Assembly (NCBI GenBank): GCA_001779505.1
Contig: MFKH01000010.1
Coordinates: 63,241 to 102,210, forward strand
Direction: 5' to 3'
DNA: 38,970 bases
Origin: Candidatus Jorgensenbacteria bacterium GWA1_54_12
GTDB taxonomy: Bacteria; Patescibacteriota; Minisyncoccia; UBA6257; GWB1-50-10
The number at the start of each line of letters is the position of its first letter. The first letter of the stretch is position 1. Shown piece after piece: positions 7,464 to 38,970 of the stretch. Under the pieces are notes generated by a model. The model saw only the letters and a program-made list of their open reading frames with translations. It was not told the origin of the DNA and did not search any database. The position numbers were made by a program, and so were the translations under genes.

Positions 7464-10400
7464 ATGAGTACGTTAAAGAAATTAGCGATCGTAGCGCTTT
7501 CTGTCGTCACCATCGTCTCAACGAGCGGTGCGGCGAGCGCAGTAACACTTTCTGAACTGCAGGGCTTGAGCCGTGATGAGCTTTTGTCGCTCCTCACCCA
7601 GCTCTTGGCCGGAGGCACCACAACGACAACGGGCGGAACATCGTCTGTTGCATGCACCTTCACGCGCAACATGTATCCAGGCGTGTCGGGAGCTGACGTC
7701 AAGTGTCTTCAGCAGTACCTGAATGGTGCTGGCTACACCATCTCCACGAGCGGCGCCGGTGCTCCGGGCAGCGAATCGGAGTACTACGGGACCAAAACCC
7801 AGGCAGCCGTCAAAAAGTGGCAGGACGCCATGGGCTTGTCTTATGGCAGCTGGGGCGGCTATTTCGGTCCTTCTTCACGGGCTAAGTTCAGCCAGGTTGC
7901 AACCGGCGGAACGACAACCGGCGGAGGGGCAGTCATCGTTGTCCCGTCGGGCACCGGTCTCGTCGTTCAAACGGCGTCAGACAGCCCGGCAAAAAGAACG
8001 CTCGGTACGGGAACCGCGTTCAATCCGGTTCTCAAAGTGCAGTTCGCGGCCGGCTCAAGCGATGTCAGCATAACAAACGTCGTGCTGAACAAGAGCGGTT
8101 TCGTTGCGAACACAAATGTGAGCGGTATTGACGTAGTTGATGCAAAAGGCGTTCGCCACGGAAACGTGGTAACTGCCGTAAATGCAGACAACACCGTCAA
8201 CATTCCGTTCTCAACCCCAATCGTGGTAAAGGCGGGCACGTCTGAAACATTGACATTCCGCATGAACCTCGCCGGAGGGGATTACAGCGGCACCATCTCG
8301 CTCTCACTCGCATCGGTGACATCTAACGCATCAAGCGTGAGCGCGTCATTCCCGATCGCGGGCGTGGCGATGGACGTTGTAAACGGCGGCAACTCTCTGG
8401 CAAGCACAACCTTGGACGTCTTGACGTCCACCGGCTCGTCAACCTTGAACATTGACGCGGCGAGCTTGCAGGAGATCACAAAATTCCGTATCCAGGAGAC
8501 GTCATCAAACGAGGCAGTCTACCTCCACAGCATGACGCTCTACAACTATGGAAACGCGGATGACACCGACTACAAGGACGTAACCCTGGAAGCCCAGGAT
8601 GGCACGGTTTTGGCCGTTGCCCAGCCGAGCGGCCAGTGGACTGTCTTCAACCTGTCCTCAAACCCCTACAAGATTGATAAGGGGCAGACAAAAGACTTCA
8701 CGGTGAAGGCAAAGCTCGTTGATGGTGCGACGAAGACCCTTCGCCTCACCGTATACAACGACTACGACCTTGACTTGCGCGGTGCGACAACTGGTATCTC
8801 GGTCATTCCGGCAGCAGGGGCGTCAGTTGACTCATCCTTCCCGATTGGTGAGGGAGCGAACCTCCAGACCTTCGGGTCGGGTTCAGTGTCTTTGTCCCGC
8901 GCGTCCGACTCCCCGAGCTCATCAGTGGCACCAGGCGCGAGCGGCGTATCCTTGGCGAAGTTCATCGCCCGTCCGACGGGTGAGAGCTACGAGCTCCGCA
9001 AAGTGAGCTTCTACATCGCCTCGACCGGCAAAGCATTGACCGGCACGGTGTATGTGAAGATAAATGGCGCGACGGTGTACAGCGCGGCTGCATCGACATT
9101 CACGAGCGACAGCACTGCCGACACGGTTACGCTCTCGAGCTACACAACCTTGACAGCGGCGACTGACAACACGATTGAAATCGTGACCGACATTCAGTCA
9201 TCCGCAACCTCGTCAAGCTCGTACCAGGTCAAGTCATTTGACCTTGTGCAGGCGAAGCGCTTGATCACGGGCGACATCGTTGACCCAACCTCAAGCACAG
9301 GTATAGACGGTTACTCGCTCTCGGTTTCGTCCGGGGCGCTTGCGATAACAACCTTGGTTCAACCGCCGGCGGGCTCCGTCGTTGCGGGAACGGTGAACTA
9401 CGAGCTTGCTCGATTCACCCTGAACGCGAGCGCGGGAGGCGAGAACGTGAAAGTCTCAAAGATCACCATCACCCACAATGGGAGCTCAACCGTGGACACG
9501 AACCTCGGCAACTACAAGCTCTTTGTGGACGTGGATGGCGACGGCCTCTTCTCTGATGAATCGGCACAGGCCACAACCGCCTCAACCGACTCGTTCACGA
9601 GTGAAGACGGCGCAGACGACACGCTTGCATTCAACCTGCAAACACAGCTTGAAGTAGAGACCTCAAAGCCTCTTACCTTGAGCCTGCGGGCGGACGTGAA
9701 GTCTGGTGCAGTAACTGCCGAAACACACCGCTTCAACGTTGCGGAAAGCGTGACTGCAATAGGGAAGGGAACCGGCAACACCGTTACCCCGACCTACGCA
9801 GGCACCGGGCAGACGCAGACGCTTGTCGGCGCTGGTCAGATGACCCTGTCGCTCCTCTCGGGAAGCGGCAAGTCGCCGTCAACAAGCCAAGTGAAAGTAG
9901 TGGGAACCGACGAGGTAGTCTTCGCTTTCAAGGTGACGTCACAATATGAGTCAATGAAGACGAGGGCATTGCGGATTACCGCAACCTCGACGACCTCGCT
10001 CACGACGAGCACCTTGTCAAACATTCGGCTGTACGACGGCGACCCGGCATCAAGCGGCAAGCTCGTTGACACGAAACAGCAGTTTGACTGGTGTAACACG
10101 AGCTACTGCTACGTAGACTTCACCTCCGACGTCGACATCTTTGGTGTTGGCGAAGGCGGCAATGGCCCGATCACAACGACCGGGAAAGAAGTGTACGTGA
10201 AGGCAAAGATCAACGACCTCTCAAATCTTCCGAAGTGGGGCGACAACTTTGGCTTCAGCATAGCCGCGACGACGCATGTGTCGTCAACCGGCGTATCGTC
10301 CGCTTCAACGACGATCACCATAACCGGTACACCGACGGCAAGCGGGTACACCAACGTGGCACCCGCATACGTGAAGATAGAGAAGGTGAATGTTCCTGAC

Positions 10401-10964
10401 ACGACACCGGGAACCGGCGCGGGCATTACCGTTGCTCGGTTCAAGGTGACGAACATGAGCGGGAGCATCCCTGTCTATCTCTCCACGAGCACGTTCCAGT
10501 TCACCCAGAACGGCTCGGCGACAACAACCATGCATGTGACAGGCACTTCTACGTTCAAGATTCTCGCATCCGCGCAGAACGGTGGAGAAACTGACACGTC
10601 AGGCTGGAACAGCGGGGTTGGTTACTACGCAGCGAGAGGCACGACGGGCGCATCAACAACCATCTCCTTCACGACCTCTACCAACGCGACTTCTGGCATC
10701 ACGCCGACTGAAGCGAAGGTTGATGCAAACAGCCACCGCTATCTGACGATTCAGACAACGGTGGTGTCGGCGACGAACGACACGTATCAGCTGGCAGTGA
10801 GCGCCTTGGGCAATATCCTCTTCAACGTGTTTGAGAGCGATATAGGCCTGAGCGGTAACTACAATGGCACGTCAGGCGGAGATGTCGACACGACAGACCT
10901 CATCACAAGTCTTTACGTGGACGGCACGCCGGTCAGTGACATGGTTACTGCGGGCGGGAGCTAG
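7464..10964 (+). CDS. giant secreted cell-surface (S-layer-like) protein with N-terminal peptidoglycan-binding domain and repeated beta-rich modules
   Basis: 1166 aa. Signal peptide MSTLKKLAIVALSVVTIVSTSGAASA. PG_binding_1-like segment GVSGADVKCLQQYLNGAGY...YYGTKTQAAVKKWQDAMGL. The rest is T/S/G/V-rich with about six divergent repeats. Confidence 0.85.
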   Translation: MSTLKKLAIVALSVVTIVSTSGAASAVTLSELQGLSRDELLSLLTQLLAGGTTTTTGGTSSVACTFTRNMYPGVSGADVKCLQQYLNGAGYTISTSGAGAPGSESEYYGTKTQAAVKKWQDAMGLSYGSWGGYFGPSSRAKFSQVATGGTTTGGGAVIVVPSGTGLVVQTASDSPAKRTLGTGTAFNPVLKVQFAAGSSDVSITNVVLNKSGFVANTNVSGIDVVDAKGVRHGNVVTAVNADNTVNIPFSTPIVVKAGTSETLTFRMNLAGGDYSGTISLSLASVTSNASSVSASFPIAGVAMDVVNGGNSLASTTLDVLTSTGSSTLNIDAASLQEITKFRIQETSSNEAVYLHSMTLYNYGNADDTDYKDVTLEAQDGTVLAVAQPSGQWTVFNLSSNPYKIDKGQTKDFTVKAKLVDGATKTLRLTVYNDYDLDLRGATTGISVIPAAGASVDSSFPIGEGANLQTFGSGSVSLSRASDSPSSSVAPGASGVSLAKFIARPTGESYELRKVSFYIASTGKALTGTVYVKINGATVYSAAASTFTSDSTADTVTLSSYTTLTAATDNTIEIVTDIQSSATSSSSYQVKSFDLVQAKRLITGDIVDPTSSTGIDGYSLSVSSGALAITTLVQPPAGSVVAGTVNYELARFTLNASAGGENVKVSKITITHNGSSTVDTNLGNYKLFVDVDGDGLFSDESAQATTASTDSFTSEDGADDTLAFNLQTQLEVETSKPLTLSLRADVKSGAVTAETHRFNVAESVTAIGKGTGNTVTPTYAGTGQTQTLVGAGQMTLSLLSGSGKSPSTSQVKVVGTDEVVFAFKVTSQYESMKTRALRITATSTTSLTTSTLSNIRLYDGDPASSGKLVDTKQQFDWCNTSYCYVDFTSDVDIFGVGEGGNGPITTTGKEVYVKAKINDLSNLPKWGDNFGFSIAATTHVSSTGVSSASTTITITGTPTASGYTNVAPAYVKIEKVNVPDTTPGTGAGITVARFKVTNMSGSIPVYLSTSTFQFTQNGSATTTMHVTGTSTFKILASAQNGGETDTSGWNSGVGYYAARGTTGASTTISFTTSTNATSGITPTEAKVDANSHRYLTIQTTVVSATNDTYQLAVSALGNILFNVFESDIGLSGNYNGTSGGDVDTTDLITSLYVDGTPVSDMVTAGGS

Positions 10965-11002
10965 TGATTGTCTTGGTTTTGCGGTAGCACATAACCGTTA
11001 TC

Positions 11003-11031
11003 AAAGCCCCGCCTCGGCGGGGCTTTGGTTT
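11003..11031 (+). terminator. rho-independent terminator after the surface-protein gene
   Basis: 10-bp GC-rich stem AAAGCCCCGC / GCGGGGCTTT with a CTCG loop, followed by GGTTT. Lies 39 nt after the stop at 10964. Confidence 0.8.
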
Positions 11032-11058
11032 CACCAAGAGGTGAGGTACACTTTATCC

Positions 11059-12420
11059 ATGGACTTTTTTAAAGCAGCGCGCTTTCTCATTTATCTCATC
11101 CCCCTGGGAATTGTTATCGTTACACCATCAACGCTTTTCCCATTTATCGTCGGGAAGTATGTATGGTTCCGAACATTGAGTGCGCTCGCACTTATCTTCT
11201 TTCTCATAGGAATCACACGTGACCGCGAGGGAAGTGTGTATCTGAAGCGATTAAAGGAACTTGTGCGGTCGCCACTCGCGATTGCCGTGACCGCGTTTAC
11301 CACTCTCTATGTTCTTGCCGGCTTTACGGGCATAGACCCACATCTCTCATTCTGGTCAAACTTTGAGCGCGGCGAGGGAGGGCTTCAAATATTGCATTTG
11401 TGGGTATTTTTCATCCTTTCAGTTACGCTTTTGCGTACGCCGAAGGAATGGCTCGCACTTCTCAAAACAAGTGTCGCAGGAGCGGTTCTTATGATTCTCT
11501 ACGGCATTGGCGCCGGGCTTAACTACGCAGGCATCGCGGAATTCAAAAACTTTATTGGCGTTCCCTTCGGCGAGCGGTTCCAAGGGTCCGTCGGCAACTC
11601 GGCATACGTCGCCGTCTACCTTCTCTTTGGCGCCTTTTTTACAGCGCTCCTTATCCGCGCGGAAAAGATAAAGAAAAAGAAGTGGTTTCTTGCCGGAATC
11701 GTTGCTCTCTGCGCCGTGTTCTTCGTTCTCGCGGCGACGCGCGGCGCTATGGTTGGTCTTGTTTTAGGGCTTTGTTTTACGCTCGTTTTTATTGCCGTGC
11801 GAGCAAAGCAATGGCGCAAGTGGGTTGTGGGGACTTTCATTGTACTTGCAGTTCTTTTAGGAACTCTCTACATGTTGAAGGGCACGCCGGCAGTGCAGAA
11901 ATTGCCTTTCGCACGGCTTTTGGACATCTCGTTTTCAGCAACGACGTTCCGGCACCGCCTTGCCGCATGGGACATCGCGTGGAAAGGATTTCTGGAGCGC
12001 CCCGTCTTGGGCTGGGGACCAGGGAACTACATTCATCTCTTTAGCCGGATACACCACCCCGCGTTTTTTGACGTGGAAAGCGGAAATTATGGTGCGTGGT
12101 TTGACCGTGCGCACAGCATCTTCTTTGACTATCTCGCGGAATCGGGTGCGGTGGGGCTTACAGCCTTCATAAGCATCTTCGCCGCCTTAGGGTGGAGAAT
12201 ATGGCGCGCACCCAAGGAAGAGTCCGCCGGGGGCGCCCGCCTGCCGGAGAGGCAGGAATCCTCCGATACCGGTGTGCGGGCGCTCGCCTTGGGAGTTATG
12301 GTTGCGTATCTTATTCAAGGACTCGTGCTTTTTAACGTCTTAGCAATATACCTCCCGCTTATAACATTTCTTGCATGGAACGAATCCAGGTTTAATCGGA
12401 AACTGTCGGTAAACACATGA
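11059..12420 (+). CDS. O-antigen ligase / PglL-type (Wzy_C family) polytopic membrane protein
   Basis: Multi-pass membrane protein with family-typical strings LAATRGAMVGLVLGL and RAHSIFFDYLAESGAVGL in a large loop region. Start set at ATG 11059 (MDFFKAARF), downstream of the terminator. The 10864 ORF extension overlaps the previous gene. Confidence 0.8.
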   Translation: MDFFKAARFLIYLIPLGIVIVTPSTLFPFIVGKYVWFRTLSALALIFFLIGITRDREGSVYLKRLKELVRSPLAIAVTAFTTLYVLAGFTGIDPHLSFWSNFERGEGGLQILHLWVFFILSVTLLRTPKEWLALLKTSVAGAVLMILYGIGAGLNYAGIAEFKNFIGVPFGERFQGSVGNSAYVAVYLLFGAFFTALLIRAEKIKKKKWFLAGIVALCAVFFVLAATRGAMVGLVLGLCFTLVFIAVRAKQWRKWVVGTFIVLAVLLGTLYMLKGTPAVQKLPFARLLDISFSATTFRHRLAAWDIAWKGFLERPVLGWGPGNYIHLFSRIHHPAFFDVESGNYGAWFDRAHSIFFDYLAESGAVGLTAFISIFAALGWRIWRAPKEESAGGARLPERQESSDTGVRALALGVMVAYLIQGLVLFNVLAIYLPLITFLAWNESRFNRKLSVNT

Positions 12421-13004
12421 AGACGTTCCATAAAGCAATTATCGGTACGCTTTTTATTCTCTCACTCCTCTCCATATATTACGGAGCGTATCGCCCTTTC
12501 GTGAAGTCGCAAATGTATCTTCGTGCCCAGCGTGCTGCGATGCTGGTGCACAATACTGATGAGGTAGAACGAATATTCAGCGAAGTGTTTGATTACGCAT
12601 CTCCGATTGGCGAAGAAGAAATCGTCAAATTTTCCTTGGAGTTTGTGCAGAACGCGATGTATGCACCGGACGCTTCGGAAGAAGCAATCCTCGACCTCCT
12701 ACAATATGTGGAAGAGAGGATTGACGAGAGAGATATTATTCATCTCGTACAGATGGGGAACGCCTATGATGCTCTCTGGCGCAATACGGGGAATGAAAAA
12801 TATTTCACGAGAGCAGAGGAATACTACAAAAAGGTACTCGCCGCGGGGCCGCGCCTCCCACAAGGCCTCTACAGCATGTTTAACCTTTACGGCGCGGCAG
12901 GCATGGCGGATGAGCTTCGAGCCATAGCCAAGCGTATTTTGGCTATCTGGCCGGAAGATGAACGGGTGCAGAAAGTGCTTAAGACCATTGAATCGGGCAT
13001 ATAA
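12417..13004 (+). CDS. membrane-anchored helical-repeat (TPR-like) protein
   Basis: N-terminal TM helix (IIGTLFILSLLSIYY), then helical-repeat-like sequence (YFTRAEEYYKKVLAAGPRLPQGLYSMFNLYGAAG). ATGA overlap with the upstream Wzy_C gene. Confidence 0.65.
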   Translation: MKTFHKAIIGTLFILSLLSIYYGAYRPFVKSQMYLRAQRAAMLVHNTDEVERIFSEVFDYASPIGEEEIVKFSLEFVQNAMYAPDASEEAILDLLQYVEERIDERDIIHLVQMGNAYDALWRNTGNEKYFTRAEEYYKKVLAAGPRLPQGLYSMFNLYGAAGMADELRAIAKRILAIWPEDERVQKVLKTIESGI

Positions 13005-13010
13005 AGTATT

Positions 13011-14153
13011 ATGGGAAATACCGCGCGGCAGCCGCTCGTTTCAATCGTTATCACGCTCTACAATGGAGCCCGTTTTATCTCATGGCCGCTTTTATCGTGC
13101 ATGCATCAGACGTATCGGAATTTAGACATTCTCGTTTTGGACGATGCGAGCACCGACGATACCGAAGCAGTCGTAAAGCAGTATGCGGAGCAGGACAAGC
13201 GTATACGATATGTCCGAAACGAAAAAAACATTGGTTATGCACGGAGTTTGCATAAAGTGGCCTGGCTTGCAATGGGAGAGTATGTTCAACTGCTGGGAGC
13301 AGATGATTGGCTGGAAAGGAACTATATTGAAACGGTTGTTGAGGAATTTGAAAAGCACCCGAAGGCGGCGTGCGTTGCGGCCGAGATTATATCCCTGCGC
13401 ATCATGCCCGAAGGGAACTTCAAGCTTATAGACGGGTATCTCCCAAAAAAGAAAACAATATCAAAAGACACTTTTATTCGAAGTGTGTACCGATCGGACG
13501 TTGGTTCCACACTCACCCCGCTCGCCTTGTTCCGAAAAGAGGATTTCCTTGAAAGCGCTGGTTTTATGAAAGAAATGTTCGAACACCCCCCTCAAAATGT
13601 TCCTCCAGAGCTTCCTGCTTTGCAGCTCAAAGGACATGGAACAGGAGACCTCTTCCTTTTAAAAACAATTCATAAGTATGACTATCTCATACTCACAGAT
13701 AAGACGGCGTTTATGAAAACAGAGCACTTCGAAAACGCGAACAAGCCTCACAATCTCACAATCGACTGGACAAGTGCGGGCAGGATTCTCCGCTCGTACT
13801 ACTACGGGCGGCTTGGTTTTGAATATCTTTTCAGAAACGCATACCGAAACTTTTGGGCTGGTTTTCGCCTGTTTTTTGGAACAGACCCCTTTGTTTCAAT
13901 ATTCGTCACATTTGTAAAGCAAAACTTCAAGTACGATTTCTTCTCCGACCTGAAAAGGGAAGATATGAAAACGTATTTCGCCGATTACTCTCTTTTTGAA
14001 AAGATCGTATCGGCGTTTTTTCTGCCGATTCATTTTATGGCGCGCGCCGCTCACTTTCTTTTTATAAGACCCCTTGACACCTCACGGAGACACGACATAA
14101 ACGTGCGCCAACAGGGCTACTTTCTGGACGAGGCCGGTCGCTTCCAGGCGTAG
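13011..14153 (+). CDS. family 2 glycosyltransferase with extended C-terminal region
   Basis: VSIVITLYNGARFI, LDDASTDDT and GADDWL (DxD-type) motifs typical of GT-A/GT2. Confidence 0.85.
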   Translation: MGNTARQPLVSIVITLYNGARFISWPLLSCMHQTYRNLDILVLDDASTDDTEAVVKQYAEQDKRIRYVRNEKNIGYARSLHKVAWLAMGEYVQLLGADDWLERNYIETVVEEFEKHPKAACVAAEIISLRIMPEGNFKLIDGYLPKKKTISKDTFIRSVYRSDVGSTLTPLALFRKEDFLESAGFMKEMFEHPPQNVPPELPALQLKGHGTGDLFLLKTIHKYDYLILTDKTAFMKTEHFENANKPHNLTIDWTSAGRILRSYYYGRLGFEYLFRNAYRNFWAGFRLFFGTDPFVSIFVTFVKQNFKYDFFSDLKREDMKTYFADYSLFEKIVSAFFLPIHFMARAAHFLFIRPLDTSRRHDINVRQQGYFLDEAGRFQA

Positions 14154-14192
14154 CCGTTTGATTTGTTCGGGCAAGGACAGTATTGTGTAGGC

Positions 14193-17921: not shown

Positions 17922-18339
17922 AACAGAGAAATCGAAAATTACCTTCTTTAAAGCAGACATCTCAACGCATGAGGATAATCGCCGCCGGATTTTTGGCATT
18001 GTTTTACCTGCCGAGATTAATTTTGCGGCAAGGGGAGTGAAAACGATAAATTTTTCAAGAAGCGGGGTAGTGGTCGGGAATCACTACCACACCATTGAAT
18101 CGGGGCGAATTGAGGTTTACATCGGAATCGGCGCTCCGGGAGTGGAACTTTTCAACTTTGCGTATCGTGACGGCGGGGAAATAAAAGAAAGGATTATTTT
18201 CAATGGAGACAGCTGTTTTATCCCGCCCGGCTGCACACATTCCTTTAAGGTGCTTTCCGAGAACGCATCGTTGTGGGGATTTTCAAATCTTGAAGGATAC
18301 GACCCGGCGCACGACGAGAAAGACGTCATATTAACTTAG
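17914..18339 (+). CDS. small cupin-fold protein, sugar-nucleotide epimerase/isomerase-like (RmlC/WxcM-like)
   Basis: 141 aa with GNHYH and FIPPGCTHSF cupin motifs. Paralogous to 26262..26657. Start ATG 17914 overlaps the upstream stop by 8 nt. Confidence 0.65.
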   Translation: MNKTEKSKITFFKADISTHEDNRRRIFGIVLPAEINFAARGVKTINFSRSGVVVGNHYHTIESGRIEVYIGIGAPGVELFNFAYRDGGEIKERIIFNGDSCFIPPGCTHSFKVLSENASLWGFSNLEGYDPAHDEKDVILT

Positions 18340-18350
18340 TTGTGTTTTTA

Positions 18351-19376: not shown

Positions 19377-19387
19377 AGTAGGAAAAC

Positions 19388-20185: not shown

Positions 20186-20204
20186 TCTCCCGAAGTGTGA
20201 TAAT

Positions 20205-24225: not shown

Positions 24226-24230
24226 CCATC

Positions 24231-26251: not shown

Positions 26252-26261
26252 AATTGAAGCC

Positions 26262-28413: not shown

Positions 28414-28456
28414 GCCCTCTTTTCTTTTCCACCCGCATTGATTAAGATGTTGGGCA

Positions 28457-32929: not shown

Positions 32930-32930
32930 A

Positions 32931-33521
32931 ATGACAAAAATGAGGGCAATCTATCACAAAATAAGGAGAACAATACTTTCGTGGTTTACTCTGCCGAGGT
33001 ATGCCTACATCGAAAAAGTAAAAGTGCCGATGAAAAATTGGATGATGCACCAGTTCACTTTTGGCGGAGCAAAACTGAAACTTGTGTACGAAGAAGAACT
33101 TGTTGAGGAGGCTAAGAAGTTTGTGCGGCCGGGTATGCTCTTTTTTGATATTGGAGCAGGAATCGGGGACTGGAGCTACATATTCGCGTCTTTGGGGTGT
33201 GAGGTATACGCATATGAATCCGATGAGAACTTGCAGAAGTTTATAAAAAAAATTGTGGGAAGGGATAATCTGCCAATTAAGGTGTTCGGAGAATTCAAGA
33301 AATTCGAAGGTGTCATGCCCGGCTTTGCGAAGATAGACGTTGACGGTGGAGAGGGGAATATCATCATGAACAGTCTTGATGCCCTCAAAGAAAGCGACGT
33401 CACTCTCGCCTTGGAAGTCAGGAATGAGACGTTTTACCTCATAGACGAGCTGAAAAAAATCGGCTACAGGGAAGTTAAAAGATTCGGGGACGACAATCGT
33501 GTGATTTTTCTTAAGAAATGA
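32931..33521 (+). CDS. FkbM-family methyltransferase
   Basis: FFDIGAGIGDWSYIFASLG and AKIDVDGGEGNII motifs. Confidence 0.75.
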   Translation: MTKMRAIYHKIRRTILSWFTLPRYAYIEKVKVPMKNWMMHQFTFGGAKLKLVYEEELVEEAKKFVRPGMLFFDIGAGIGDWSYIFASLGCEVYAYESDENLQKFIKKIVGRDNLPIKVFGEFKKFEGVMPGFAKIDVDGGEGNIIMNSLDALKESDVTLALEVRNETFYLIDELKKIGYREVKRFGDDNRVIFLKK

Positions 33522-33522
33522 C

Positions 33523-34566
33523 ATGTCTCACCCCCTTATCTCAAAAGCATTAACATGGTTTTTTGAGGAGCTCAATAACCGGAAGGTTCAATATGCCGTT
33601 TTACGGAAGGAAGAGCGCATTCCTGACGCCGCAGGAAACGATATCGACATACTGTTCGGCAAAGACAAATACTCTCAAGTGCGGGAAATGATCCGCGAGT
33701 GCGCCGATAAATTCGGCTTCAAAGTGTATGAACGGAGGGACGTTGAAGGGCTCTACTCCATTCTTTATACGTTCGTTGAGGGAAAGCTTGTTTTCTTCCG
33801 CCTTGACTGTGCGCACAAGATGAAAAACCCCGATGCCCTGCTTCGCGCTCGCACACAAAACGAGAAGGGCATATATTATCTCCCGCCGGGTCTTCATAAG
33901 AAGAAAAGCAAAAGCCGCTTCAAGAACCTCCTGACATATCCAGCGCGATTCCTCTTTCCGCCGGGGAAATTCATCGTTATCGTTGGTCCCGACGGCGTAG
34001 GCAAATCAACGACAGCCGAGCTTATGGCACAGCTCCTTGAAGCATTCCATATCCCCGTCGCGCACATGCATCTGGGATTCCGGCCCCGGATTCTGCCGAC
34101 GCGGAAGGGATTCGCGTCTTTTGGGAAAGAAAAACCGGCCCCGGGAGAGAAGTCAAAAACCCCGGGACTTGTGCGTTTCCTGTATCACGCACTGGACTAT
34201 CTTTTGGGCTACTTCCTAAAAATTCGCCCCCTGCTCATTAGGGGACGCCTCGTCATCGGGGAAAGATACTTCTACAATTATCTTGTTGACCCGCGACAGA
34301 AGAAAGAATTGAAGTTTCCCCCCTGGTTGCCACAGCTTGTGTACGCATTATTTATTCCAAAGCCGGACATGGTTATCCTGCTCTCAAACGACCCGGAGAC
34401 AATTTACAAAAGGAGACAGGAACATTCAATTGAAGAAATCAGCCGGCAGATTGGGAAATATCGGGCGATCGGCCAAAAAGCAGAGAGCTTTCTTGAGGTG
34501 AAGACCGATAAACCGGCGGAAGAAGTAGCTGTCAGCATAGTTAAGAAATTGACAGATGACCGATAG
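33523..34566 (+). CDS. two-domain protein: nucleotidyltransferase-fold-like N-terminus + dTMP-kinase-like P-loop domain
   Basis: N-terminal AAGNDIDILFGKD (NTase-like G-x-D-x-D) and a central Walker A, IVIVGPDGVGKST. Confidence 0.6.
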   Translation: MSHPLISKALTWFFEELNNRKVQYAVLRKEERIPDAAGNDIDILFGKDKYSQVREMIRECADKFGFKVYERRDVEGLYSILYTFVEGKLVFFRLDCAHKMKNPDALLRARTQNEKGIYYLPPGLHKKKSKSRFKNLLTYPARFLFPPGKFIVIVGPDGVGKSTTAELMAQLLEAFHIPVAHMHLGFRPRILPTRKGFASFGKEKPAPGEKSKTPGLVRFLYHALDYLLGYFLKIRPLLIRGRLVIGERYFYNYLVDPRQKKELKFPPWLPQLVYALFIPKPDMVILLSNDPETIYKRRQEHSIEEISRQIGKYRAIGQKAESFLEVKTDKPAEEVAVSIVKKLTDDR

Positions 34567-35749
34567 CAAGAAGTACAAACTGGCGATACTCATATCGCAT
34601 CCGATTCAATACCACACGCCGCTTTTTCAGGCGCTGGCAAGACATCCCGAGATAGACCTCACCGTTTATTACTGTTGGGATTTTGGCGTGAAAAAACAAT
34701 CGGCTGAACCTGAATTCGGCGTTGCATACGAGTGGGACATTCCGCTCCTTGAAGGGTATAAGTACAAGTTTCTAAAAAATTTAAGCCTTCGACCATCAGA
34801 AAAATTTTGGGGGCAGGTGAACCCGGACGTTATGAGGGAAATATGGAAAGAGCGATATGACGCCTTGTGGGTTCACGGATATTCGTTTTTCACCGATTGG
34901 CTCGCATTTCTCGCGGCGAAATTAAGAGGAACGCCGATTTTCATTCGCGGCATAACGCATCTTTTGGATAAGAAACCATGGCACATCCGCCTTATAAAGC
35001 GGCTTATGCTTTCGGTGCTATTCAAAGCATGCGCCGCATGCCTCTACATAGGAAAGCATAATAAAGATTATTACCAGCACTATGGCGTTCCCGAACGGAA
35101 GCTGTTTCTTGTGCCGCATGTCGTCGGAAACGACTTTTTCAGAAAGTTTTATGAGGAGCTGAAACCGCGCCGCGCCGAGATTCGAAAGGAATTCGGTTTT
35201 ACGGGCGACGACCCGGTCATCCTCTTCGCCGGAAAATTAATTCCCAAAAAGCGCCCCTTGTGGGTTCTTGAAGCATACCGGAAAGTCCGAGAGCAATATC
35301 CATGCAAAATGCTCTTCGCCGGAGAGGGACCGCTAAGAAAAGACATTGAGTCAGAGGTGAAAAAACATGGCATCCCCGACGTAGTCATTACGGGTTTTTT
35401 GAACCAGACGGAGATGCCGCGAGCGTATGTTTCCGGAGACATGCTTGTGCTCCCGTCGGCATACGGTGAAACGTGGGGACTTGTCGTAAATGAGGCAATG
35501 AATTTTGTTCTGCCTATAATCGTTTCAGATAAAGTAGGATGCGGACCCGATATGGTTAAGGAAGGGGAGAACGGATATATCATACGCTCTCCTGAAAAAC
35601 TGGCCGATGCGCTGCGCGAAATTGTTTCCGACGGTGAAAAGCGGCGCGAGTTTGGGAAGCGGTCGGCAGAACTGGTATCCATATGGAACGTGGAACAGGC
35701 CGTTCGGGGAGCATACGCCGCCTTACGGTCAATTTATGAATCCGTTTAG
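34556..35749 (+). CDS. family 4 (GT-B) glycosyltransferase
   Basis: LPSAYGETWGLVVNEAMNFVLPIIVSD (EX7E region) and FAGKLIPKKRP. Overlaps the upstream stop by 11 nt. Confidence 0.85.
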   Translation: MTDSKKYKLAILISHPIQYHTPLFQALARHPEIDLTVYYCWDFGVKKQSAEPEFGVAYEWDIPLLEGYKYKFLKNLSLRPSEKFWGQVNPDVMREIWKERYDALWVHGYSFFTDWLAFLAAKLRGTPIFIRGITHLLDKKPWHIRLIKRLMLSVLFKACAACLYIGKHNKDYYQHYGVPERKLFLVPHVVGNDFFRKFYEELKPRRAEIRKEFGFTGDDPVILFAGKLIPKKRPLWVLEAYRKVREQYPCKMLFAGEGPLRKDIESEVKKHGIPDVVITGFLNQTEMPRAYVSGDMLVLPSAYGETWGLVVNEAMNFVLPIIVSDKVGCGPDMVKEGENGYIIRSPEKLADALREIVSDGEKRREFGKRSAELVSIWNVEQAVRGAYAALRSIYESV

Positions 35750-36509
35750 CTTAAAAAATACAACTTTTCTCGGGAAGCTCGCGCGCCTTCCCCTGAAACT
35801 TATACCCCCACACGCTGTGGTTCGCATTCTGCAGGGAGCAGGACGGGGCCTGAAATGGATAAAGGGGAGCGGCAATAATTCCTACTGGCTCGGCACGTAC
35901 GAGGCAGACAAGCAGAAAGCAATCAAGGAAACGCTCAAGAAAGGAATGGTTTTTTATGACCTAGGGGCGCACGTTGGCATTTTCACCTTGCTGGCGGCAA
36001 CAACTGTTGGGGAAAGAGGGTTGGTAATTGCTTTTGAACCGTCCGAGAGGAACATCAGCTACCTTGAAAAACACATCATACTTAATGGATTCGGCAATAT
36101 TGCGGTCAAAAAAGGCGCGGTGGCGAAAAAGAGCGGCAGTACACGCTTTAAAGAAGGGGGAAGCAGTGCGGGTGGCCATATCTCCGACGGCGGGACGGTG
36201 GTTCGGACATATTCAATCGATGAATTGGTAGTGGGCGGATTGCGGAAACCGGACGTAGTGAAAATTGACGTGCAGGGAGCAACGCTCCTCGCACTTCAGG
36301 GGATGGAAAGAACTCTGAAAGAGGGGAATATAAAACTGTTTATTGCCATTGATAATACCCCCCGGGCAGGCATTGAACCATTTACCAAAAGAGATGTGCA
36401 TAATTTTCTGAAATCGGCGGGGTACACAACAGTGGGGATGAATGGAGAAAAAGTGCCGGATAGCGCGGTTGAAGAGGTGAATGAAATAATAGCATATAAG
36501 GCGAAATGA
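35736..36509 (+). CDS. FkbM-family methyltransferase
   Basis: FYDLGAHVGIFTLLAA and VKIDVQGATLLALQG. Start at ATG 35736 (MNPFSLKN). The 35607 extension lies inside the upstream GT gene. Confidence 0.8.
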   Translation: MNPFSLKNTTFLGKLARLPLKLIPPHAVVRILQGAGRGLKWIKGSGNNSYWLGTYEADKQKAIKETLKKGMVFYDLGAHVGIFTLLAATTVGERGLVIAFEPSERNISYLEKHIILNGFGNIAVKKGAVAKKSGSTRFKEGGSSAGGHISDGGTVVRTYSIDELVVGGLRKPDVVKIDVQGATLLALQGMERTLKEGNIKLFIAIDNTPRAGIEPFTKRDVHNFLKSAGYTTVGMNGEKVPDSAVEEVNEIIAYKAK

Positions 36510-37687
36510 ATTTTGAAGACTTTTTCGGGCAGGACACGTCAAGTGGAAAACGACTTGCTATTTTGAGCGGCGGATTCCCCGAAAACGGAGTTGCTGTTCC
36601 GTTGTTTTCACGGAGCGTTTTCAAAAGTGCTATGCGTGAGCTTGTAACATACAAGGGAAGGACGCCGCTCCGGAAACTTACGATACGCACAGTAGGAATT
36701 TTGGGCGGAGTTCTCGGAGGCGCGCCATTCAAAAAGAAATTCCATCTTGCAGATAAAGAGGATAGTTTTTTTGCCTTTCTGAAATCAAAACTTGGCGAAG
36801 ACGTGACGTGTTCAATATATGTTGGCTCAAGGAAGTTCATCCTGCCCACGTTCAGGGAAAAAGACGGAAAGCTCTTAGGTGTGGCGAAGGCATATTTCCC
36901 GGGTCGTGAGTCCGCCTACGGAGAAAACGAGGCACACATATTGGATGAGTTGAGTGAAATGCGCCTCGCTGGTTTCAGTTTCCCTCAAGTGCTTGCCAAA
37001 GATTATTTCAGAGGAGCGCTCGTCGTCATTCTCTCTTCTTTTCCAAATCTAAAAAATGCGAGGTCAATCACGGAGCGGCACACTGATTTTTTGAAGCAAC
37101 TCTCTGGGAAAACAGGTGCGAGAACCGCGTTTGCGGAGTCGGCGTTTCGAAAACAGATTGAAGGAGAAACCACCTTCCTGAAGTCGGAATTCCCGGGAGA
37201 TTTTCGACACGTGGAGCATTTCCGTAAAGATGCCGTCCGAAATCTTGAGGGCAAAGAATTTTTCTTTTCCCTCACGAAACGGGAATTTCCTTTTTTTGAG
37301 CTATTCACGTCACGCGCCGATAGCACAAGAACGGATGTTGTCATTGATTGGGAACATGCGCGACACGGTTTTCCTCCCATTTTTGACGTGTTCAGCCTGC
37401 TTATGAGTTCGGCAAGGTTCAAAAAAGGAGATTATACCGCGCTATACGAAAAGAACGTTATGGACCTTTTCTTTGGAAAAAACAAAAAAGCAAGAGGATT
37501 CTTGAGAAAGATGATGAATTTCTGGAATATAGCTCCGGAAGACGGGTATCATTTCTTTGTGCTTTATCTCATTGACCAGCTCTACTTGCATCGTCATGTT
37601 GGTCACCGTGCTTCGGCAGAAAGGATCACATCACTCTTTGAGCGTTTCGGCGCCGACGGTGCCCCGCAAAAATTATGGAAAATCTAA
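36506..37687 (+). CDS. APH/choline-kinase-like phosphotransferase-fold protein with divergent catalytic loop
   Basis: VVIDWEHARHGFPPIFD (IDWE...P..D signature), with GVAKAY and ENEAHILDEL upstream. ATGA overlap with the FkbM gene. Confidence 0.55.
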   Translation: MNFEDFFGQDTSSGKRLAILSGGFPENGVAVPLFSRSVFKSAMRELVTYKGRTPLRKLTIRTVGILGGVLGGAPFKKKFHLADKEDSFFAFLKSKLGEDVTCSIYVGSRKFILPTFREKDGKLLGVAKAYFPGRESAYGENEAHILDELSEMRLAGFSFPQVLAKDYFRGALVVILSSFPNLKNARSITERHTDFLKQLSGKTGARTAFAESAFRKQIEGETTFLKSEFPGDFRHVEHFRKDAVRNLEGKEFFFSLTKREFPFFELFTSRADSTRTDVVIDWEHARHGFPPIFDVFSLLMSSARFKKGDYTALYEKNVMDLFFGKNKKARGFLRKMMNFWNIAPEDGYHFFVLYLIDQLYLHRHVGHRASAERITSLFERFGADGAPQKLWKI

Positions 37688-38418
37688 TACTCCGCCTCTT
37701 CGGCTTCCTGCCGACAGTTCTTTTTGGCGACGCCGCCGTTTTTGACCGGTGGCTGTGGCTTAAGCGACACCTTGGACGAGGCAGGACGCTTGACGCCGGT
37801 TGCGGCTCGGGAGCGTTTGCCATATACGCCGCGAAGCGGGGGAATGAAGCTGTTGGCATATCGTTTGACGAAAGGAACAACAAAGTCGCCTCGGAACGGG
37901 CGAAACTTCTCGGTGTGCAAAACGTTTCGTTCCTCTCTCACGACCTGCGCCGCCTTGACGAACTGGCGGAGAAACTCGGGACCTTTGACCAGGCCATTTG
38001 TTTTGAAACGATAGAACACATAGTGAACGACAAAAAACTCCTCCGCGACATTCGAGGCATGCTGAACCCGGGCGGCGAACTGCTCCTCACTGCGCCGTAC
38101 ACGCATTACAAACGGATTATGGGAAATAAGATTTCCGAAGTTGAAAACGGCGACCATGTGCGCTGGGGATACACGCACGAGGAAATTGAATCGCTTTTGA
38201 AAGAAGCCGGGTTCGCGGTTAAAACTCGTGACTATGTAACGGGCGCAATTTCGCAGTGGCTTATCCTTCTCTATCGCGCCTTGTCGCGCGTGCTCCCGTA
38301 TCAAGCGGCATGGGCAGTGGTGCTTCCGTTTCGGCTCCTCACAGTGCTTGACCCCGTCGTTACGAAGCTTCTCCGTTACCCATATCTTTCAATCGCAATT
38401 GTCGCAGAGAGAAATTGA
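37675..38418 (+). CDS. class I SAM-dependent methyltransferase with hydrophobic C-terminal tail
   Basis: TLDAGCGSGAFAIYAA (motif I), FDQAICFETIEHI and LNPGGELLLTAP. Confidence 0.85.
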   Translation: MENLILRLFGFLPTVLFGDAAVFDRWLWLKRHLGRGRTLDAGCGSGAFAIYAAKRGNEAVGISFDERNNKVASERAKLLGVQNVSFLSHDLRRLDELAEKLGTFDQAICFETIEHIVNDKKLLRDIRGMLNPGGELLLTAPYTHYKRIMGNKISEVENGDHVRWGYTHEEIESLLKEAGFAVKTRDYVTGAISQWLILLYRALSRVLPYQAAWAVVLPFRLLTVLDPVVTKLLRYPYLSIAIVAERN

Positions 38419-38426
38419 TTAAGCAC

Positions 38427-38970
38427 ATGAAAGTCATTATTTCAGTCCCCGGCAAATTTCATGCGTTTGACCTCGGGCGCGAACTCATGAAGCGCAATTG
38501 CCTTGAAGAACTCATAACCGCGTTTCCGAAGCGCAAGGCGGGGGAGTACGGCATTCCGAGGGACAAAATCGTTTCCCTCATGGCGCCTGAAGCAATATTT
38601 CGCGTCTGGAGAAAATTGCCGCCGTTCATCCGGAGAATCTATAACCCGCACTACCTGGTGAGCAGTGTGTATGACGGTCTTGCGGCGAGGAATCTTCGTT
38701 CCGCCGACGTGTGCGTCGCTTGGGCGGGATATGCGCTGAAAACGCTTACGGAAGCGAAAAAGCGGGGCATGGCAGTCGTTTTGGAACGGGGAAGCTCTCA
38801 TATAGAGTATCAAACACGGATATTGAAAGAAGAGTACGAAACTTTTGGCGCGAACGTGCGCCTCGCTCACCCGAAAATCATTGAGAAAGAACTCCGGGAA
38901 TACGAAACAGCCGACCGCATAGCCGTGCCGTCGTCGTTTGTGAAGAAGACATTCATTGAAAAAGGAATCC
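38427..38970 (+). CDS. family 4 (GT-B) glycosyltransferase, 3'-truncated by the window edge
   Basis: My own translation from ATG 38427 stays open to the window end: MKVIISVPGKFHAFDLGREL...ADRIAVPSSFVKKTFIEKGI. The N-terminal GT4-type domain style is present. The ORF is not in the track because no stop is reached. Confidence 0.75.
   Translation, partial: MKVIISVPGKFHAFDLGRELMKRNCLEELITAFPKRKAGEYGIPRDKIVSLMAPEAIFRVWRKLPPFIRRIYNPHYLVSSVYDGLAARNLRSADVCVAWAGYALKTLTEAKKRGMAVVLERGSSHIEYQTRILKEEYETFGANVRLAHPKIIEKELREYETADRIAVPSSFVKKTFIEKGI

What the first reader, a model, noticed from the sequence alone, without database searches (positions are those of the whole stretch)
7464..38970. PG-anchored Thr/Ser-rich giant surface protein followed by a 28-kb glycan locus led by a Wzy_C/PglL-type enzyme: candidate S-layer-type protein glycosylation system
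Seen:
- The 1166-aa ORF has a signal peptide, a PG_binding_1-like module and about 1000 aa of T/S/G/V-rich sequence. By my read it carries at least a dozen N-x-S/T sequons (NKS, NVS, NAS, NLS, NGS, NTS, NMS, NAT, NDT, NGT and others).
- It ends at the only strong intrinsic terminator in the window.
- About 30 nt after that terminator, 29 co-directional ORFs begin. The first is a polytopic Wzy_C-type protein (LAATRGAMVGLVLGL; AHSIFFDYLAESGAVGL) with a TPR-like partner.
- Sugar-nucleotide enzymes, six glycosyltransferases and five methyltransferases follow.

Established:
- The Wzy_C family includes WaaL ligases, the protein O-oligosaccharyltransferases PglL/PilO, and WsaB of the Geobacillus stearothermophilus S-layer glycosylation (slg) cluster.
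- As I recall, slg clusters in Bacillales lie next to the separately transcribed S-layer gene and use gmd, cupin isomerases and terminal O-methyl caps.

Inference: the locus may glycosylate the adjacent surface protein rather than a lipid core. That would be an slg-like system in a very different lineage.
Basis: partly seen in the sequence, partly recalled or inferred. Interest (0 to 1): 0.75.

Follow-up and report, generated by a model that had tools for sequence, protein, structure and literature searches.

The report
Candidate S-layer protein with glycosylation locus
In an uncultured ultra-small groundwater bacterium (Patescibacteria/CPR), a large wall-anchored surface protein gene sits next to a conserved ligase-like enzyme and a variable ~43-kb sugar-synthesis locus, which probably add sugars to that protein, though this has not been shown directly.

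Summary
The described layout is real. A 1166-aa secreted protein (SLP) has a PG_binding_1 anchor and a body of Ig-like beta domains. Its gene has a long leader and a strong terminator. Next come a WaaL-fold Wzy_C enzyme, a 195-aa TPR partner and 27 more co-directional sugar genes.

New evidence:
- The organism is a Patescibacterium, a lineage reported to have an S-layer and no outer membrane.
- The SLP family is conserved across the phylum (35-57% identity). It swaps its N-terminal anchor (PG_binding_1, SLH, other), as S-layer proteins do.
- SLP, then Wzy_C, then TPR recurs in 19 of 21 close loci. It also recurs, as Wzy_C-TPR fusions, in a different genomic context in distant classes.
- The partner is fused to Wzy_C in relatives, matching WsaA/WsaB and WsfB of Bacillales S-layer glycosylation.
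- The locus continues about 16 kb past the window and ends with a Wzx flippase and a WbaP-type initiating transferase, not an ABC exporter.

Against: the N-x-S/T sequons are at chance level and irrelevant to an O-linking enzyme. The PglL_A motif is absent. Sequence and fold cannot separate a protein transferase from a ligase. Nothing shows lattice formation or glycosylation.

Verdict: interpretation partly supported (about 0.5); a new variant of a known kind.

The parts
7071..7463 (+). Long 5' leader / promoter region of the surface-protein gene. Promoter-like site at 7122-7150; repeated GTCG(A/T)AA motif at 7428 and 7446.
   Evidence: A 370-740 nt gap is conserved in all orthologous loci. The promoter-like hit carries an extended TG. 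The RNA fold z-score is -3.34. The motif is about 25-fold enriched upstream of orthologous genes.
7464..10964 (+). Surface protein (SLP), 1166 aa. Signal peptide aa 1-26; disordered Thr/Gly linkers aa 46-60 and 147-156; PG_binding_1 aa 75-126; chain of Ig-like beta-sandwich domains aa 166-1151.
   Evidence: Pfam; composition; AlphaFold2 pLDDT 83; 223 homologs at 35-57% identity with anchor swapping to SLH.
10997..11036 (+). Intrinsic terminator hairpin closing the monocistronic SLP gene.
   Evidence: dG -26.9 kcal/mol. An equivalent hairpin follows all 23 orthologs checked.
11059..12420 (+). Wzy_C / WaaL-fold polytopic enzyme, 453 aa: candidate O-oligosaccharyltransferase (or ligase).
   Evidence: Pfam Wzy_C E 3.8e-19. 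Profile hits WaaL 7tpg (1.3e-11) and the oligosaccharyltransferase 9rmk (8e-8), with R228, R300 and H352 invariant. AF2 model has 12 TM helices, pTM 0.89; Foldseek to WaaL gives TM 0.58/0.64.
12417..13004 (+). 195-aa partner: one TM helix plus a TPR-like helical-repeat domain, inferred to be extracytoplasmic.
   Evidence: Overlapping stop/start with the Wzy_C gene. 32% identity (E 3e-31) to aa 471-658 of the fused Wzy_C-TPR protein P0108. Fusion proteins are listed.
13011..14153 (+). GT2 glycosyltransferase.
   Evidence: Pfam Glycos_transf_2 E 9e-27.
14193..15188 (+). GDP-mannose 4,6-dehydratase.
   Evidence: Pfam GDP_Man_Dehyd E 4.6e-116.
15189..16888 (+). Split transketolase-like ThDP enzyme (N part 15189-15977, C part 15974-16888).
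   Evidence: Pfam Transketolase_N, Transket_pyr, Transketolase_C. The same GMD-TK-TK-epimerase cassette occurs in L048.
16863..18339 (+). SDR epimerase/dehydratase (16863-17921) and small cupin (17914-18339).
   Evidence: Pfam Epimerase E 3e-33; weak dTDP_sugar_isom E 0.002.
18420..20948 (+). Methyltransferase-like protein (18420-19376, weak), short UDP-glucose/GDP-mannose dehydrogenase-like protein lacking the C-terminal domain (19388-20185), and methyltransferase (20205-20948).
   Evidence: Pfam. The short dehydrogenase recurs right after the TPR partner in L002, L004 and L029.
20932..22948 (+). E1 alpha/beta-like ThDP enzyme pair.
   Evidence: Pfam E1_dh E 3e-46; Transket_pyr and Transketolase_C.
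22948..24225 (+). 425-aa polytopic membrane protein of a CPR-only orphan family. GT-C-like transferase or polymerase is a guess only.
   Evidence: No Pfam or PDB hit. About 20 homologs, all hypothetical. It lies next to Wzy_C-TPR in Jorgensenbacteria.
24231..27661 (+). SDR epimerase (24231-25172), GT4 (25169-26251), cupin (26262-26657), GFO/IDH/MocA oxidoreductase (26654-27661).
   Evidence: Pfam.
27658..28413 (+). Small GT2 resembling polyprenyl-phosphate sugar synthases (PpgS / PgfS / ArnC / AglJ-like).
   Evidence: NCBIfam hits at E 1e-14 to 1e-16, all below curated cut-offs.
28457..30658 (+). Fusion of a nucleotide-sugar dehydrogenase and an SDR dehydratase/decarboxylase-like domain, 733 aa.
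   Evidence: Pfam and NCBIfam.
30624..38418 (+). Unknown 419 aa; Glyco_trans_1_2 GT; weak methyltransferase; P-loop (thymidylate-kinase-like) protein; GT4; FkbM methyltransferase; unknown 393 aa with a faint APH-like kinase motif; methyltransferase.
   Evidence: Pfam.
38427..38970 (+). 5' part of a GT4 gene cut by the window end. The locus continues about 16 kb further.
   Evidence: L010 and L065: more GTs, oxidoreductases, UDP-GlcNAc 2-epimerase and an AsnB-like protein, then a convergent Wzx flippase and WbaP-type phosphoglycosyltransferase, then DsbA and a release factor.

Best explanation
This is a three-part surface module of a Patescibacterium: a structural protein, a transferase and a glycan factory.

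(1) The 1166-aa protein is exported by Sec. It binds peptidoglycan through PG_binding_1 and displays a rigid chain of Ig-like domains. It is the best candidate for the S-layer (or S-layer-like coat) protein. Its gene is a separate, probably highly expressed unit with a long leader and a strong terminator.

(2) The roughly 43-kb locus builds a methylated, probably branched heteroglycan on undecaprenyl pyrophosphate. A WbaP-type transferase starts it, cytoplasmic GT2/GT4 enzymes extend it, and methyltransferases decorate it. A Wzx flippase turns it to the outer face of the membrane.

(3) The WaaL-fold Wzy_C enzyme transfers the glycan en bloc onto Ser/Thr hydroxyls of the surface protein. Its extracytoplasmic TPR partner is proposed to hold the protein acceptor. 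The most plausible sites are the disordered Thr/Gly linkers flanking the anchor.

Shown: gene content, folds, catalytic residues, conserved linkage, the fusion of the TPR partner, and the monocistronic structure. Inferred: S-layer identity, the protein acceptor, the site of modification and the role of TPR.
For: - Lineage. All close homologs of both proteins are Patescibacteria. Groundwater CPR cells show an S-layer and no outer membrane by cryo-TEM.
- SLP family. It has 223 members of about 1100-1240 aa and 35-57% identity. The body is conserved while the anchor swaps: PG_binding_1, three SLH repeats in P0223, or other. The protein has an acidic pI, is poor in Cys and Met, and the body is predicted to be all-beta Ig-like domains.
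- Transcription unit. Leader and terminator are conserved.
- Wzy_C enzyme. WaaL fold with invariant Arg/Arg/His.
- TPR partner. It is fused to Wzy_C in many relatives. Because the Wzy_C C-terminus is cytoplasmic, the extra TM helix puts the TPR domain outside.
- Linkage. 19 of 21 close loci keep the arrangement even when TruB, Fic, AbiEii or PDDEXK genes are inserted between the two genes. In Magasanikbacteria and relatives, the order SLP, Wzy_C-TPR fusion, GT/MT cluster recurs after DnaK/DnaJ/sigma genes instead of ClpB.
- Not polymerase-like. Wzy_C stays 41-55% identical while the downstream glycan genes turn over almost completely. That is the behaviour of a ligase or transferase with a conserved acceptor, not of a repeat-unit polymerase.
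- Precedent. The architecture matches sgsE / wsaA (TPR) / wsaB (Wzy_C) and WsfB with a fused TPR. PglL-type genes usually sit beside their target.
- Pathway parts. Wzx and WbaP are present, and locus G+C is lower than the flanks.
Against: - No experimental or omics evidence shows that the protein forms a lattice or carries glycan.
- Sequence and fold cannot separate O-oligosaccharyltransferases from ligases, as stated in PMC3643930. The best structural match is a WaaL ligase.
- The PglL_A motif PF15864 is not detected.
- Foldseek finds no known S-layer fold, only generic Ig-domain chains.
- Eleven of 20 distant family members have no Wzy_C within 10 kb.
- In the close clade the adjacency is embedded in a larger conserved block (HtrA-ClpB-membrane protein), so part of it may be inherited synteny.
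- Thr/Ser/Gly/Pro-rich linkers track adjacency only weakly.
- N-sequons are at chance level.
Confidence: 0.5

Rival explanations
1. Wall-glycopolymer ligase. The Wzy_C-TPR pair transfers, or helps polymerise, the lipid-linked glycan onto a non-protein acceptor such as a membrane glycolipid anchor or a wall polymer. This would make a secondary cell-wall or capsule-like polysaccharide. The surface-protein gene is a neighbour only because envelope genes cluster.
For: - The best sequence and structure matches are to the WaaL ligase.
- PglL_A is absent.
- A complete Wzx/WbaP polysaccharide pathway with many GTs suggests a long polymer.
- NCBIfam gives weak similarity to a repeat-unit polymerase model and to IctB-type proteins.
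- Eleven of 20 distant SLP genes lack a nearby Wzy_C.
Against: - From general knowledge, wall polymers in monoderm bacteria are attached by LCP enzymes, not Wzy_C proteins.
- Wzy_C is conserved while the glycan genes vary, which is unlike polymerases.
- The window's SLP binds peptidoglycan through PG_binding_1, so it needs no dedicated anchoring polymer.
- The extracytoplasmic TPR domain and its Bacillales counterparts point to a protein acceptor.
- The adjacency recurs in unrelated contexts.
Confidence: 0.28
2. General O-glycosylation system. The Wzy_C-TPR enzyme modifies many secreted proteins (type IV pilins, adhesins and the SLP among them), as in Neisseria or Tannerella. The SLP is just the most abundant client.
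For: - PglL-type enzymes have relaxed glycan and protein specificity and target flexible low-complexity linkers.
- The SLP has such linkers.
Against: - The tight, recurrent adjacency is to this one protein family.
- No other candidate target lies in the window.
- It cannot be excluded with the tools at hand, and it is a broader version of the best explanation rather than its opposite.
Confidence: 0.14
3. No functional link. The 1166-aa protein is a fibrillar adhesin or wall protein, not an S-layer. Its position beside the glycan locus is inherited gene order in small, syntenic genomes.
For: - In the close clade the whole HtrA-ClpB-membrane-SLP-Wzy_C block is conserved.
- Foldseek gives only generic Ig-chain matches, including adhesin Ig domains such as PrgB.
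Against: - The same SLP to Wzy_C-TPR to glycan order exists with different upstream genes in Magasanikbacteria and others.
- The adjacency survives insertions.
- Constant length, high conservation and anchor swapping are unlike fast-evolving adhesins with variable repeat numbers.
Confidence: 0.08

Closest known systems
S-layer glycosylation (slg) clusters of Geobacillus stearothermophilus NRS 2004/3a (sgsE, wsaA, wsaB, wsaP) and Paenibacillus alvei (spaA, wsfA, wsfB, wsfD/H), as reviewed in PMC2943079
   Same: - The structural gene is monocistronic and lies beside the cluster.
- A Wzy_C-domain transferase comes with a TPR protein, either separate (WsaA, 168 aa; here 195 aa) or fused (WsfB; here fusions in relatives).
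- A WbaP-type initiating enzyme is present.
- An Asn-synthase homolog is in the locus (wsfA; here an AsnB-like protein in L065 and L006).
- A polyprenyl-P-sugar synthase-like GT2 is present.
- There are many GTs and O-methyltransferases, and G+C is lower than the flanks.
   Different: - The phylum is different (Patescibacteria).
- Export is by a Wzx flippase, not a Wzm/Wzt ABC transporter.
- The anchor is PG_binding_1, not SLH-type.
- The body is a chain of Ig-like domains with no detectable similarity to SgsE or SpaA.
- The locus is far larger (about 43 kb) and holds two ThDP enzyme pairs.
- Orthology of the Wzy_C protein to WsaB/WsfB could not be tested because no sequences were at hand.
- Glycosylation is unproven.
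PglL / PilO (TfpO) protein O-oligosaccharyltransferases of Proteobacteria
   Same: - Wzy_C domain.
- The Arg/Arg/His triad is conserved (E. coli WaaL R215, R288, H338; PglL R224, R298, H349; here R228, R300, H352).
- The gene often lies beside, and in the same direction as, its target gene.
- Targets are flexible low-complexity Ser/Thr-rich segments.
- PglL carries a C-terminal TPR motif.
   Different: - The PglL_A motif (PF15864) is not found.
- The neighbouring target is a 117-kDa wall protein, not a pilin.
- The host is a monoderm.
WaaL O-antigen ligase (Cupriavidus metallidurans, PDB 7tpg)
   Same: Best fold match: 12 TM helices, a large outer loop carrying the catalytic His, and an Und-PP-glycan donor.
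   Different: - Only 18% identity.
- The lineage is reported to lack an outer membrane, so no LPS acceptor is expected.
- There is an extra conserved outer loop motif (FWSNFERGEGG) and a TPR partner.
Tannerella forsythia general O-glycosylation of the TfsA/TfsB S-layer (PMC6120980, abstract only)
   Same: The S-layer proteins are the main clients of an O-glycosylation gene cluster that makes a species-specific complex glycan.
   Different: It is a diderm Bacteroidota system and a general one. No comparison of its enzymes was made here.

Membership tests
Wzy_C / WaaL-PglL superfamily (PF04932) | Pfam Wzy_C domain above the gathering score | tested here: met
   69.4 bits against a cut-off of 31.7, E 3.8e-19.
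Wzy_C / WaaL-PglL superfamily (PF04932) | 12-TM fold with a large extracytoplasmic loop, resembling WaaL | tested here: met
   AF2 pTM 0.89 with 12 helices and a loop at 273-353. Foldseek to 7tpg: E 3.6e-8, TM 0.58/0.64.
Wzy_C / WaaL-PglL superfamily (PF04932) | Catalytic Arg, Arg, His triad | tested here: met
   R228, R300 and H352 are invariant in 31 sequences and align to the WaaL and oligosaccharyltransferase motifs.
PglL-type protein O-oligosaccharyltransferase | PglL_A motif (PF15864) that separates PglL from WaaL | tested here: not met
   No hit even at E <= 10. PilO also lacks it, so absence does not exclude transferase activity.
PglL-type protein O-oligosaccharyltransferase | Gene adjacent to and co-oriented with the target protein gene | tested here: met
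   19 of 21 close loci and 6 of 20 distant loci have it immediately downstream on the same strand.
PglL-type protein O-oligosaccharyltransferase | Demonstrated transfer of Und-PP-glycan to Ser/Thr of a protein | not testable with these tools
   Needs glycoproteomics or heterologous reconstitution.
Bacillales-type slg S-layer glycosylation system | S-layer structural gene transcribed on its own, close to the cluster | tested here: met
   Long leader plus a conserved terminator, with the Wzy_C start about 25-30 nt after the hairpin. S-layer identity itself is inferred.
Bacillales-type slg S-layer glycosylation system | Wzy_C transferase with a TPR module, fused or as a small neighbour protein | tested here: met
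   The partner 12417-13004 is homologous to the fused C-terminal TM+TPR domain. The Bacillales parallel is described.
Bacillales-type slg S-layer glycosylation system | WbaP-type initiating phosphoglycosyltransferase in the cluster | tested here: met
   Bac_transf E 8e-58 at the distal end of the locus (L065).
Bacillales-type slg S-layer glycosylation system | Wzm/Wzt ABC-transporter export of the completed chain | tested here: not met
   No ABC2 or ABC pair in the locus. A Wzx-type flippase (Polysacc_synt E 3e-34) is present instead.
Bacillales-type slg S-layer glycosylation system | Orthology of the transferase to WsaB/WsfB | not tested
All close homologs are Patescibacteria.
Bacterial S-layer protein | Secreted, with a wall-anchoring module plus a separate self-assembly body; acidic and poor in Cys/Met | tested here: met
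   Signal peptide by reading; PG_binding_1 here and SLH in homologs; pI 4.8, 4 Cys, 0.9% Met.
Bacterial S-layer protein | Forms a 2-D lattice and is the most abundant envelope protein | not testable with these tools
   The only support is cryo-TEM reports of S-layers on CPR cells.
Bacterial S-layer protein | Fold similarity to a solved S-layer protein | tested here: inconclusive
   Foldseek against PDB gives only generic multi-Ig chains with TM <= 0.17.
WaaL lipid A-core O-antigen ligase | Host has an outer membrane with LPS core as acceptor | not testable with these tools
   The whole genome was not available. The lineage is reported to lack an outer membrane.
Wzy repeat-unit polymerase | Co-varies with the glycan gene set it serves | tested here: not met
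   Wzy_C stays 41-55% identical across loci whose downstream glycan genes are mostly different.

The most novel reading that the evidence does not exclude
The 1100-1240-aa Ig-chain family is the long-sought S-layer protein of much of the Patescibacteria. The Wzy_C-TPR enzyme next to it is a phylum-wide dedicated S-layer O-oligosaccharyltransferase. It would coat the lattice with strain-specific, hypervariable, methylated and branched glycans. This would be the molecular interface that ultra-small episymbionts present to hosts and phages.
Probability: 0.4. Interest if true: 0.8.

Novelty: new variant of a known kind. Interest (0 to 1): 0.62.

Why it matters
Patescibacteria make up a large share of bacterial diversity. 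They live attached to other cells and are almost uncultured. Microscopy shows an S-layer on them, but no paper in the searchable library names its protein or links these bacteria to protein glycosylation.

If the reading holds, it gives:
- a named candidate S-layer protein family with a confident structural model;
- a dedicated transferase module that can be tested in E. coli glyco-engineering strains;
- an explanation for the large, fast-changing sugar loci in genomes otherwise stripped of biosynthesis, namely surface variation under host or phage pressure.

It would also extend S-layer O-glycosylation of the Bacillales type to a very distant monoderm lineage, with Wzx rather than ABC export.

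Tried and rejected
- N-glycosylation reading: 12 sequons against 13.9 +/- 3.1 expected, and no STT3-type enzyme in the window. Rejected.
- Foldseek of the SLP model against PDB: generic Ig chains only, no S-layer match.
- Profile of the SLP family against PDB sequences: only the PG-binding module hits.
- PglL_A motif: absent.
- The 425-aa membrane protein: the last protein search gave about 20 hypothetical CPR proteins. Its profile against PDB gave nothing. hhalign against the Wzy_C family gave no relation. Function is left open.
- The unknown 419-aa and 393-aa proteins: no PDB or Pfam match apart from a faint APH motif.
- Rfam on the window and on the leader: nothing credible. No tRNAs.
- Correlation of Thr/Ser/Gly/Pro-rich linkers with Wzy_C adjacency: a weak trend (12.0 against 10.3 of 14 residues), confounded by phylogeny. 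Not used as evidence.
- Generic terminator and promoter scans: counts equal the shuffled expectation, so only the specific conserved hairpin is used.
- Context of SLH-anchored Peregrinibacteria members: contigs end about 1 kb after the gene, so they cannot be evaluated.
- Literature searches for prior description: none found.

Full report
**Observation**

All substantial ORFs of the window lie on the + strand. ORF 7464-10964 encodes 1166 aa. By reading, it has a Sec signal peptide (MSTLKKLAIVALSVVTIVSTSGAASA|V). Its only Pfam hit is PG_binding_1 (aa 75-126, E 8e-9). The rest is Thr/Ser/Gly/Ala/Val-rich (T 14.3%, S 12.7%), acidic (pI 4.8) and has almost no Cys or Met.

Shuffles of the same composition give 13.9 +/- 3.1, so they carry no signal.

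The gene ends 33 nt before a GC-rich hairpin with a U-rich tail, at about 10997-11036 (dG -26.9 kcal/mol). This is the second most stable 40-nt window on the + strand. The most stable one, at 1446, has no T tract.

The next gene starts at 11059. The longer ORF from 10864 overlaps the hairpin and is an artefact, because homologs align from the 11059 Met. It is a Wzy_C protein (E 3.8e-19). A 195-aa protein follows with an overlapping stop/start, and its TPR hit is sub-threshold. After that come 27 more co-directional ORFs:
- GT2, GT4 and Glyco_trans_1_2 transferases (six in all, one cut by the window end);
- five methyltransferase-like proteins, two of them weak;
- GDP-mannose dehydratase, SDR epimerases, two cupins, dehydrogenases, a split transketolase, an E1 alpha/beta pair and several unknowns.

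**Organism**

Every close homolog of the Wzy_C protein and of the surface protein comes from Patescibacteria/CPR: Jorgensen-, Wolfe-, Brenner-, Lipton-, Nomura-, Magasanik- and Peregrinibacteria, and Paceibacterota. The window is part of a 67.9-kb groundwater metagenome contig. Cryo-TEM papers report that groundwater CPR cells have an S-layer (periodicities 3.8 and 10 nm) and no outer membrane. A Nealsonbacteria culture and a 2026 review say the same. A lipid A-core acceptor is therefore not expected.

**The surface protein (SLP)**

The family has 223 detected members of about 1100-1240 aa, 35-57% identical over the whole length. The roughly 1000-aa body is conserved while the N-terminal anchor is exchanged. 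It is PG_binding_1 in the window's clade and three SLH repeats in a Peregrinibacteria member (E 7e-28). Other members carry a single SLH or unrecognised wall-binding repeats. An exchangeable anchor with a conserved body is the standard S-layer protein design.

AlphaFold2 (pLDDT 83) predicts a small helical PG-binding module flanked by two disordered Thr/Gly linkers (aa 46-60 and 147-156). A chain of Ig-like beta sandwiches follows (aa 166-1151). Foldseek finds only generic Ig-domain chains (TM <= 0.17) and no solved S-layer protein.

The gene has a conserved 370-740 nt upstream gap and a promoter-like site at 7122-7150. The leader is structured (z -3.34). It carries a repeated GTCG(A/T)AA motif that is about 25-fold enriched upstream of the orthologous genes. 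All 23 orthologs checked end in a strong hairpin. The gene is therefore an independent unit, as S-layer genes are in Bacillales.

**The Wzy_C enzyme and its partner**

A 31-sequence profile hits the WaaL ligase 7tpg (E 1.3e-11) and a 610-aa oligosaccharyltransferase, 9rmk (E 8e-8). The three residues essential in WaaL and PglL are invariant here as R228, R300 and H352.

The AF2 model (pTM 0.89) has 12 TM helices and a large loop at 273-353. Three helices follow that loop, so the C-terminus is cytoplasmic. WaaL is the only significant fold match.

The PglL-specific PglL_A motif is absent. The source paper stresses that ligases and protein transferases cannot be told apart by simple sequence comparison, and that PilO also lacks the motif.

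The 195-aa partner is homologous along its whole length, including its TM helix, to the C-terminal extension of about 650-745-aa fused relatives (32% identity, E 3e-31; TPR_19 above threshold in P0108). With a cytoplasmic Wzy_C C-terminus, the added helix places the TPR domain outside the cell membrane, beside the catalytic loop. This step is an inference.

**Linkage**

In gene-annotated contigs the following order recurs down to 43% Wzy_C identity: HtrA, ClpB, membrane protein, gap, SLP, 0-4 inserted genes (TruB, Fic, AbiEii, a methyltransferase or PDDEXK), Wzy_C, partner, variable sugar cluster.

In 54 species-representative loci, 19 of 21 evaluable close loci have Wzy_C 121-3242 nt downstream of the SLP gene, followed by the partner.

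Among 20 evaluable distant loci that lack ClpB upstream:
- six have a fused Wzy_C-TPR gene of the same subfamily immediately downstream;
- three more have one within 10 kb;
- eleven have none.

In a Magasanikbacteria contig the upstream genes are DnaK, DnaJ and sigma factors. Even so, the order SLP, Wzy_C-TPR fusion, methyltransferase/aminotransferase/GT4 cluster is reproduced. The pairing is therefore not just inherited block synteny.

Wzy_C stays 41-55% identical while the downstream glycan genes are largely replaced from genome to genome. That argues against a repeat-unit polymerase and for an enzyme with a conserved acceptor and a relaxed donor.

**Extent of the locus**

Overlapping contigs (99.3-100% identical) show that the locus runs about 16 kb beyond the window. 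It holds three more GTs, oxidoreductases, a nucleotidyltransferase, UDP-GlcNAc 2-epimerase and an Asn-synthase homolog. It ends with a convergent Wzx-type flippase (Polysacc_synt E 3e-34) and a WbaP-type phosphoglycosyltransferase (Bac_transf E 8e-58). DsbA and a release factor follow. The pathway is therefore Wzx-dependent and Und-PP-linked. G+C is 46-53% in the locus against 54-57% upstream.

**Comparison with known systems**

- In G. stearothermophilus the S-layer gene sgsE lies beside the slg cluster and is transcribed alone.
- There, wsaB (Wzy_C, putative O-transferase) is preceded by wsaA, a 168-aa TPR protein.
- In P. alvei, WsfB has the TPR fused, and the locus holds an Asn-synthase homolog and a polyprenyl-P-glucose branch system.
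- Initiation in these systems uses a WbaP homolog.

The CPR module shares all of these. It differs in using Wzx instead of Wzm/Wzt, in the anchor type, in the structural protein fold, in size and in lineage. PglL-type genes are likewise usually adjacent to their targets, and they modify flexible low-complexity linkers.

**Conclusion**

The best explanation (about 0.5) is an slg-like O-glycosylation module whose Wzy_C-TPR enzyme decorates the adjacent S-layer candidate. The rivals are:
- a ligase for a non-protein wall glycopolymer (about 0.28);
- a general O-glycosylation system (about 0.14);
- no functional link (about 0.08).

No paper in the searchable library describes this for CPR. The finding is a new variant of a known kind. 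It is worth experimental follow-up, but it rests entirely on comparative inference.

Noticed in passing
window 7380-7463 and 926-934; upstream of SLP orthologs in L011-L057: A repeated motif (A/G)GTCG(A/T)AA(C) sits at about -20, -50 and -85 from the SLP start codon. It is about 25-fold enriched there across 18 orthologous loci (6.9 per kb against 0.27 per kb). The same GGTCGAAAC lies 36 nt upstream of the small ORF 962-1170. There is no GGAGG-type Shine-Dalgarno next to the SLP ATG. It may be a leader, translation or regulator-binding element, and Rfam has nothing for it.
   Followed up: partly
window 15189-16888 and 20932-22948: Two thiamine-diphosphate enzyme pairs lie inside a glycan locus: a split transketolase and an E1 alpha/beta-like pair. 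The GMD, TK-N, TK-C, epimerase cassette recurs in a Magasanikbacteria locus (L048). From general knowledge of AviB1/B2- and YerE-type pathways, this suggests two-carbon branched or chain-extended sugars.
   Followed up: no
window 22948-24225: A 425-aa polytopic membrane protein belongs to a CPR-only orphan family of about 20 homologs. It has an invariant Asp (D40) in the first loop after TM1. In Jorgensenbacteria it sits directly after Wzy_C-TPR (L007, L013). Together with the polyprenyl-P-sugar synthase-like GT2 at 27658-28413, it could form a GtrB/GT-C-type outer-face glycosylation pair like WsfH/WsfD, but nothing confirms that.
   Followed up: partly
window 19388-20185; L002 11893-12702; L004 11984-12805: A short (265-273 aa) UDP-glucose/GDP-mannose dehydrogenase-like protein lacks the C-terminal UDP-binding domain. 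It recurs in these loci, usually directly after the TPR partner, with 65% identity in L011.
   Followed up: no
window 33523-34566 and 36506-38418: A P-loop thymidylate-kinase-like protein is present. So is a 393-aa protein with a faint APH-type kinase motif (VIDWEHARHG), followed by a SAM methyltransferase. This recalls kinase plus methyltransferase chain terminators such as WbdD, which would be odd in a Wzx-type locus. The evidence is very weak.
   Followed up: no
window 28457-30658: A 733-aa fusion joins a complete nucleotide-sugar dehydrogenase to an SDR dehydratase/decarboxylase-like domain. It resembles a one-polypeptide route from a UDP-hexose to a UDP-uronate-derived pentose or 4-keto sugar.
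   Followed up: no
L003 6845-9848; L004 8589-10008; L007 9542-9940: In relatives, the short gap between the SLP gene and Wzy_C is a recurrent insertion site. The inserted genes include TruB, a Fic/HTH pair, an AbiEii toxin, a methyltransferase and a PDDEXK nuclease.
   Followed up: no
window 962-1170 and 1175-1396: Two tandem paralogous mini-genes (69 and 73 aa) each encode one TM helix plus an acidic tail ending in ELQGL/IEGL. A very stable hairpin at 1446-1485 with no T tract follows, just before the cysteine desulfurase gene.
   Followed up: no
L065 5708-7591 (- strand); L006 2318-4099: An asparagine-synthase homolog lies in the glycan locus. In Wolfebacteria it comes directly after the Wzy_C partner. 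This parallels wsfA of the P. alvei slg locus and may amidate a uronic acid or a peptide moiety.
   Followed up: no
L028, L062, L063: Some Paceibacterota genomes carry divergent or second SLP-like genes (30-40% identity) without a nearby Wzy_C. L062 keeps the HtrA-ClpB context but has a different body after about residue 690.
   Followed up: no
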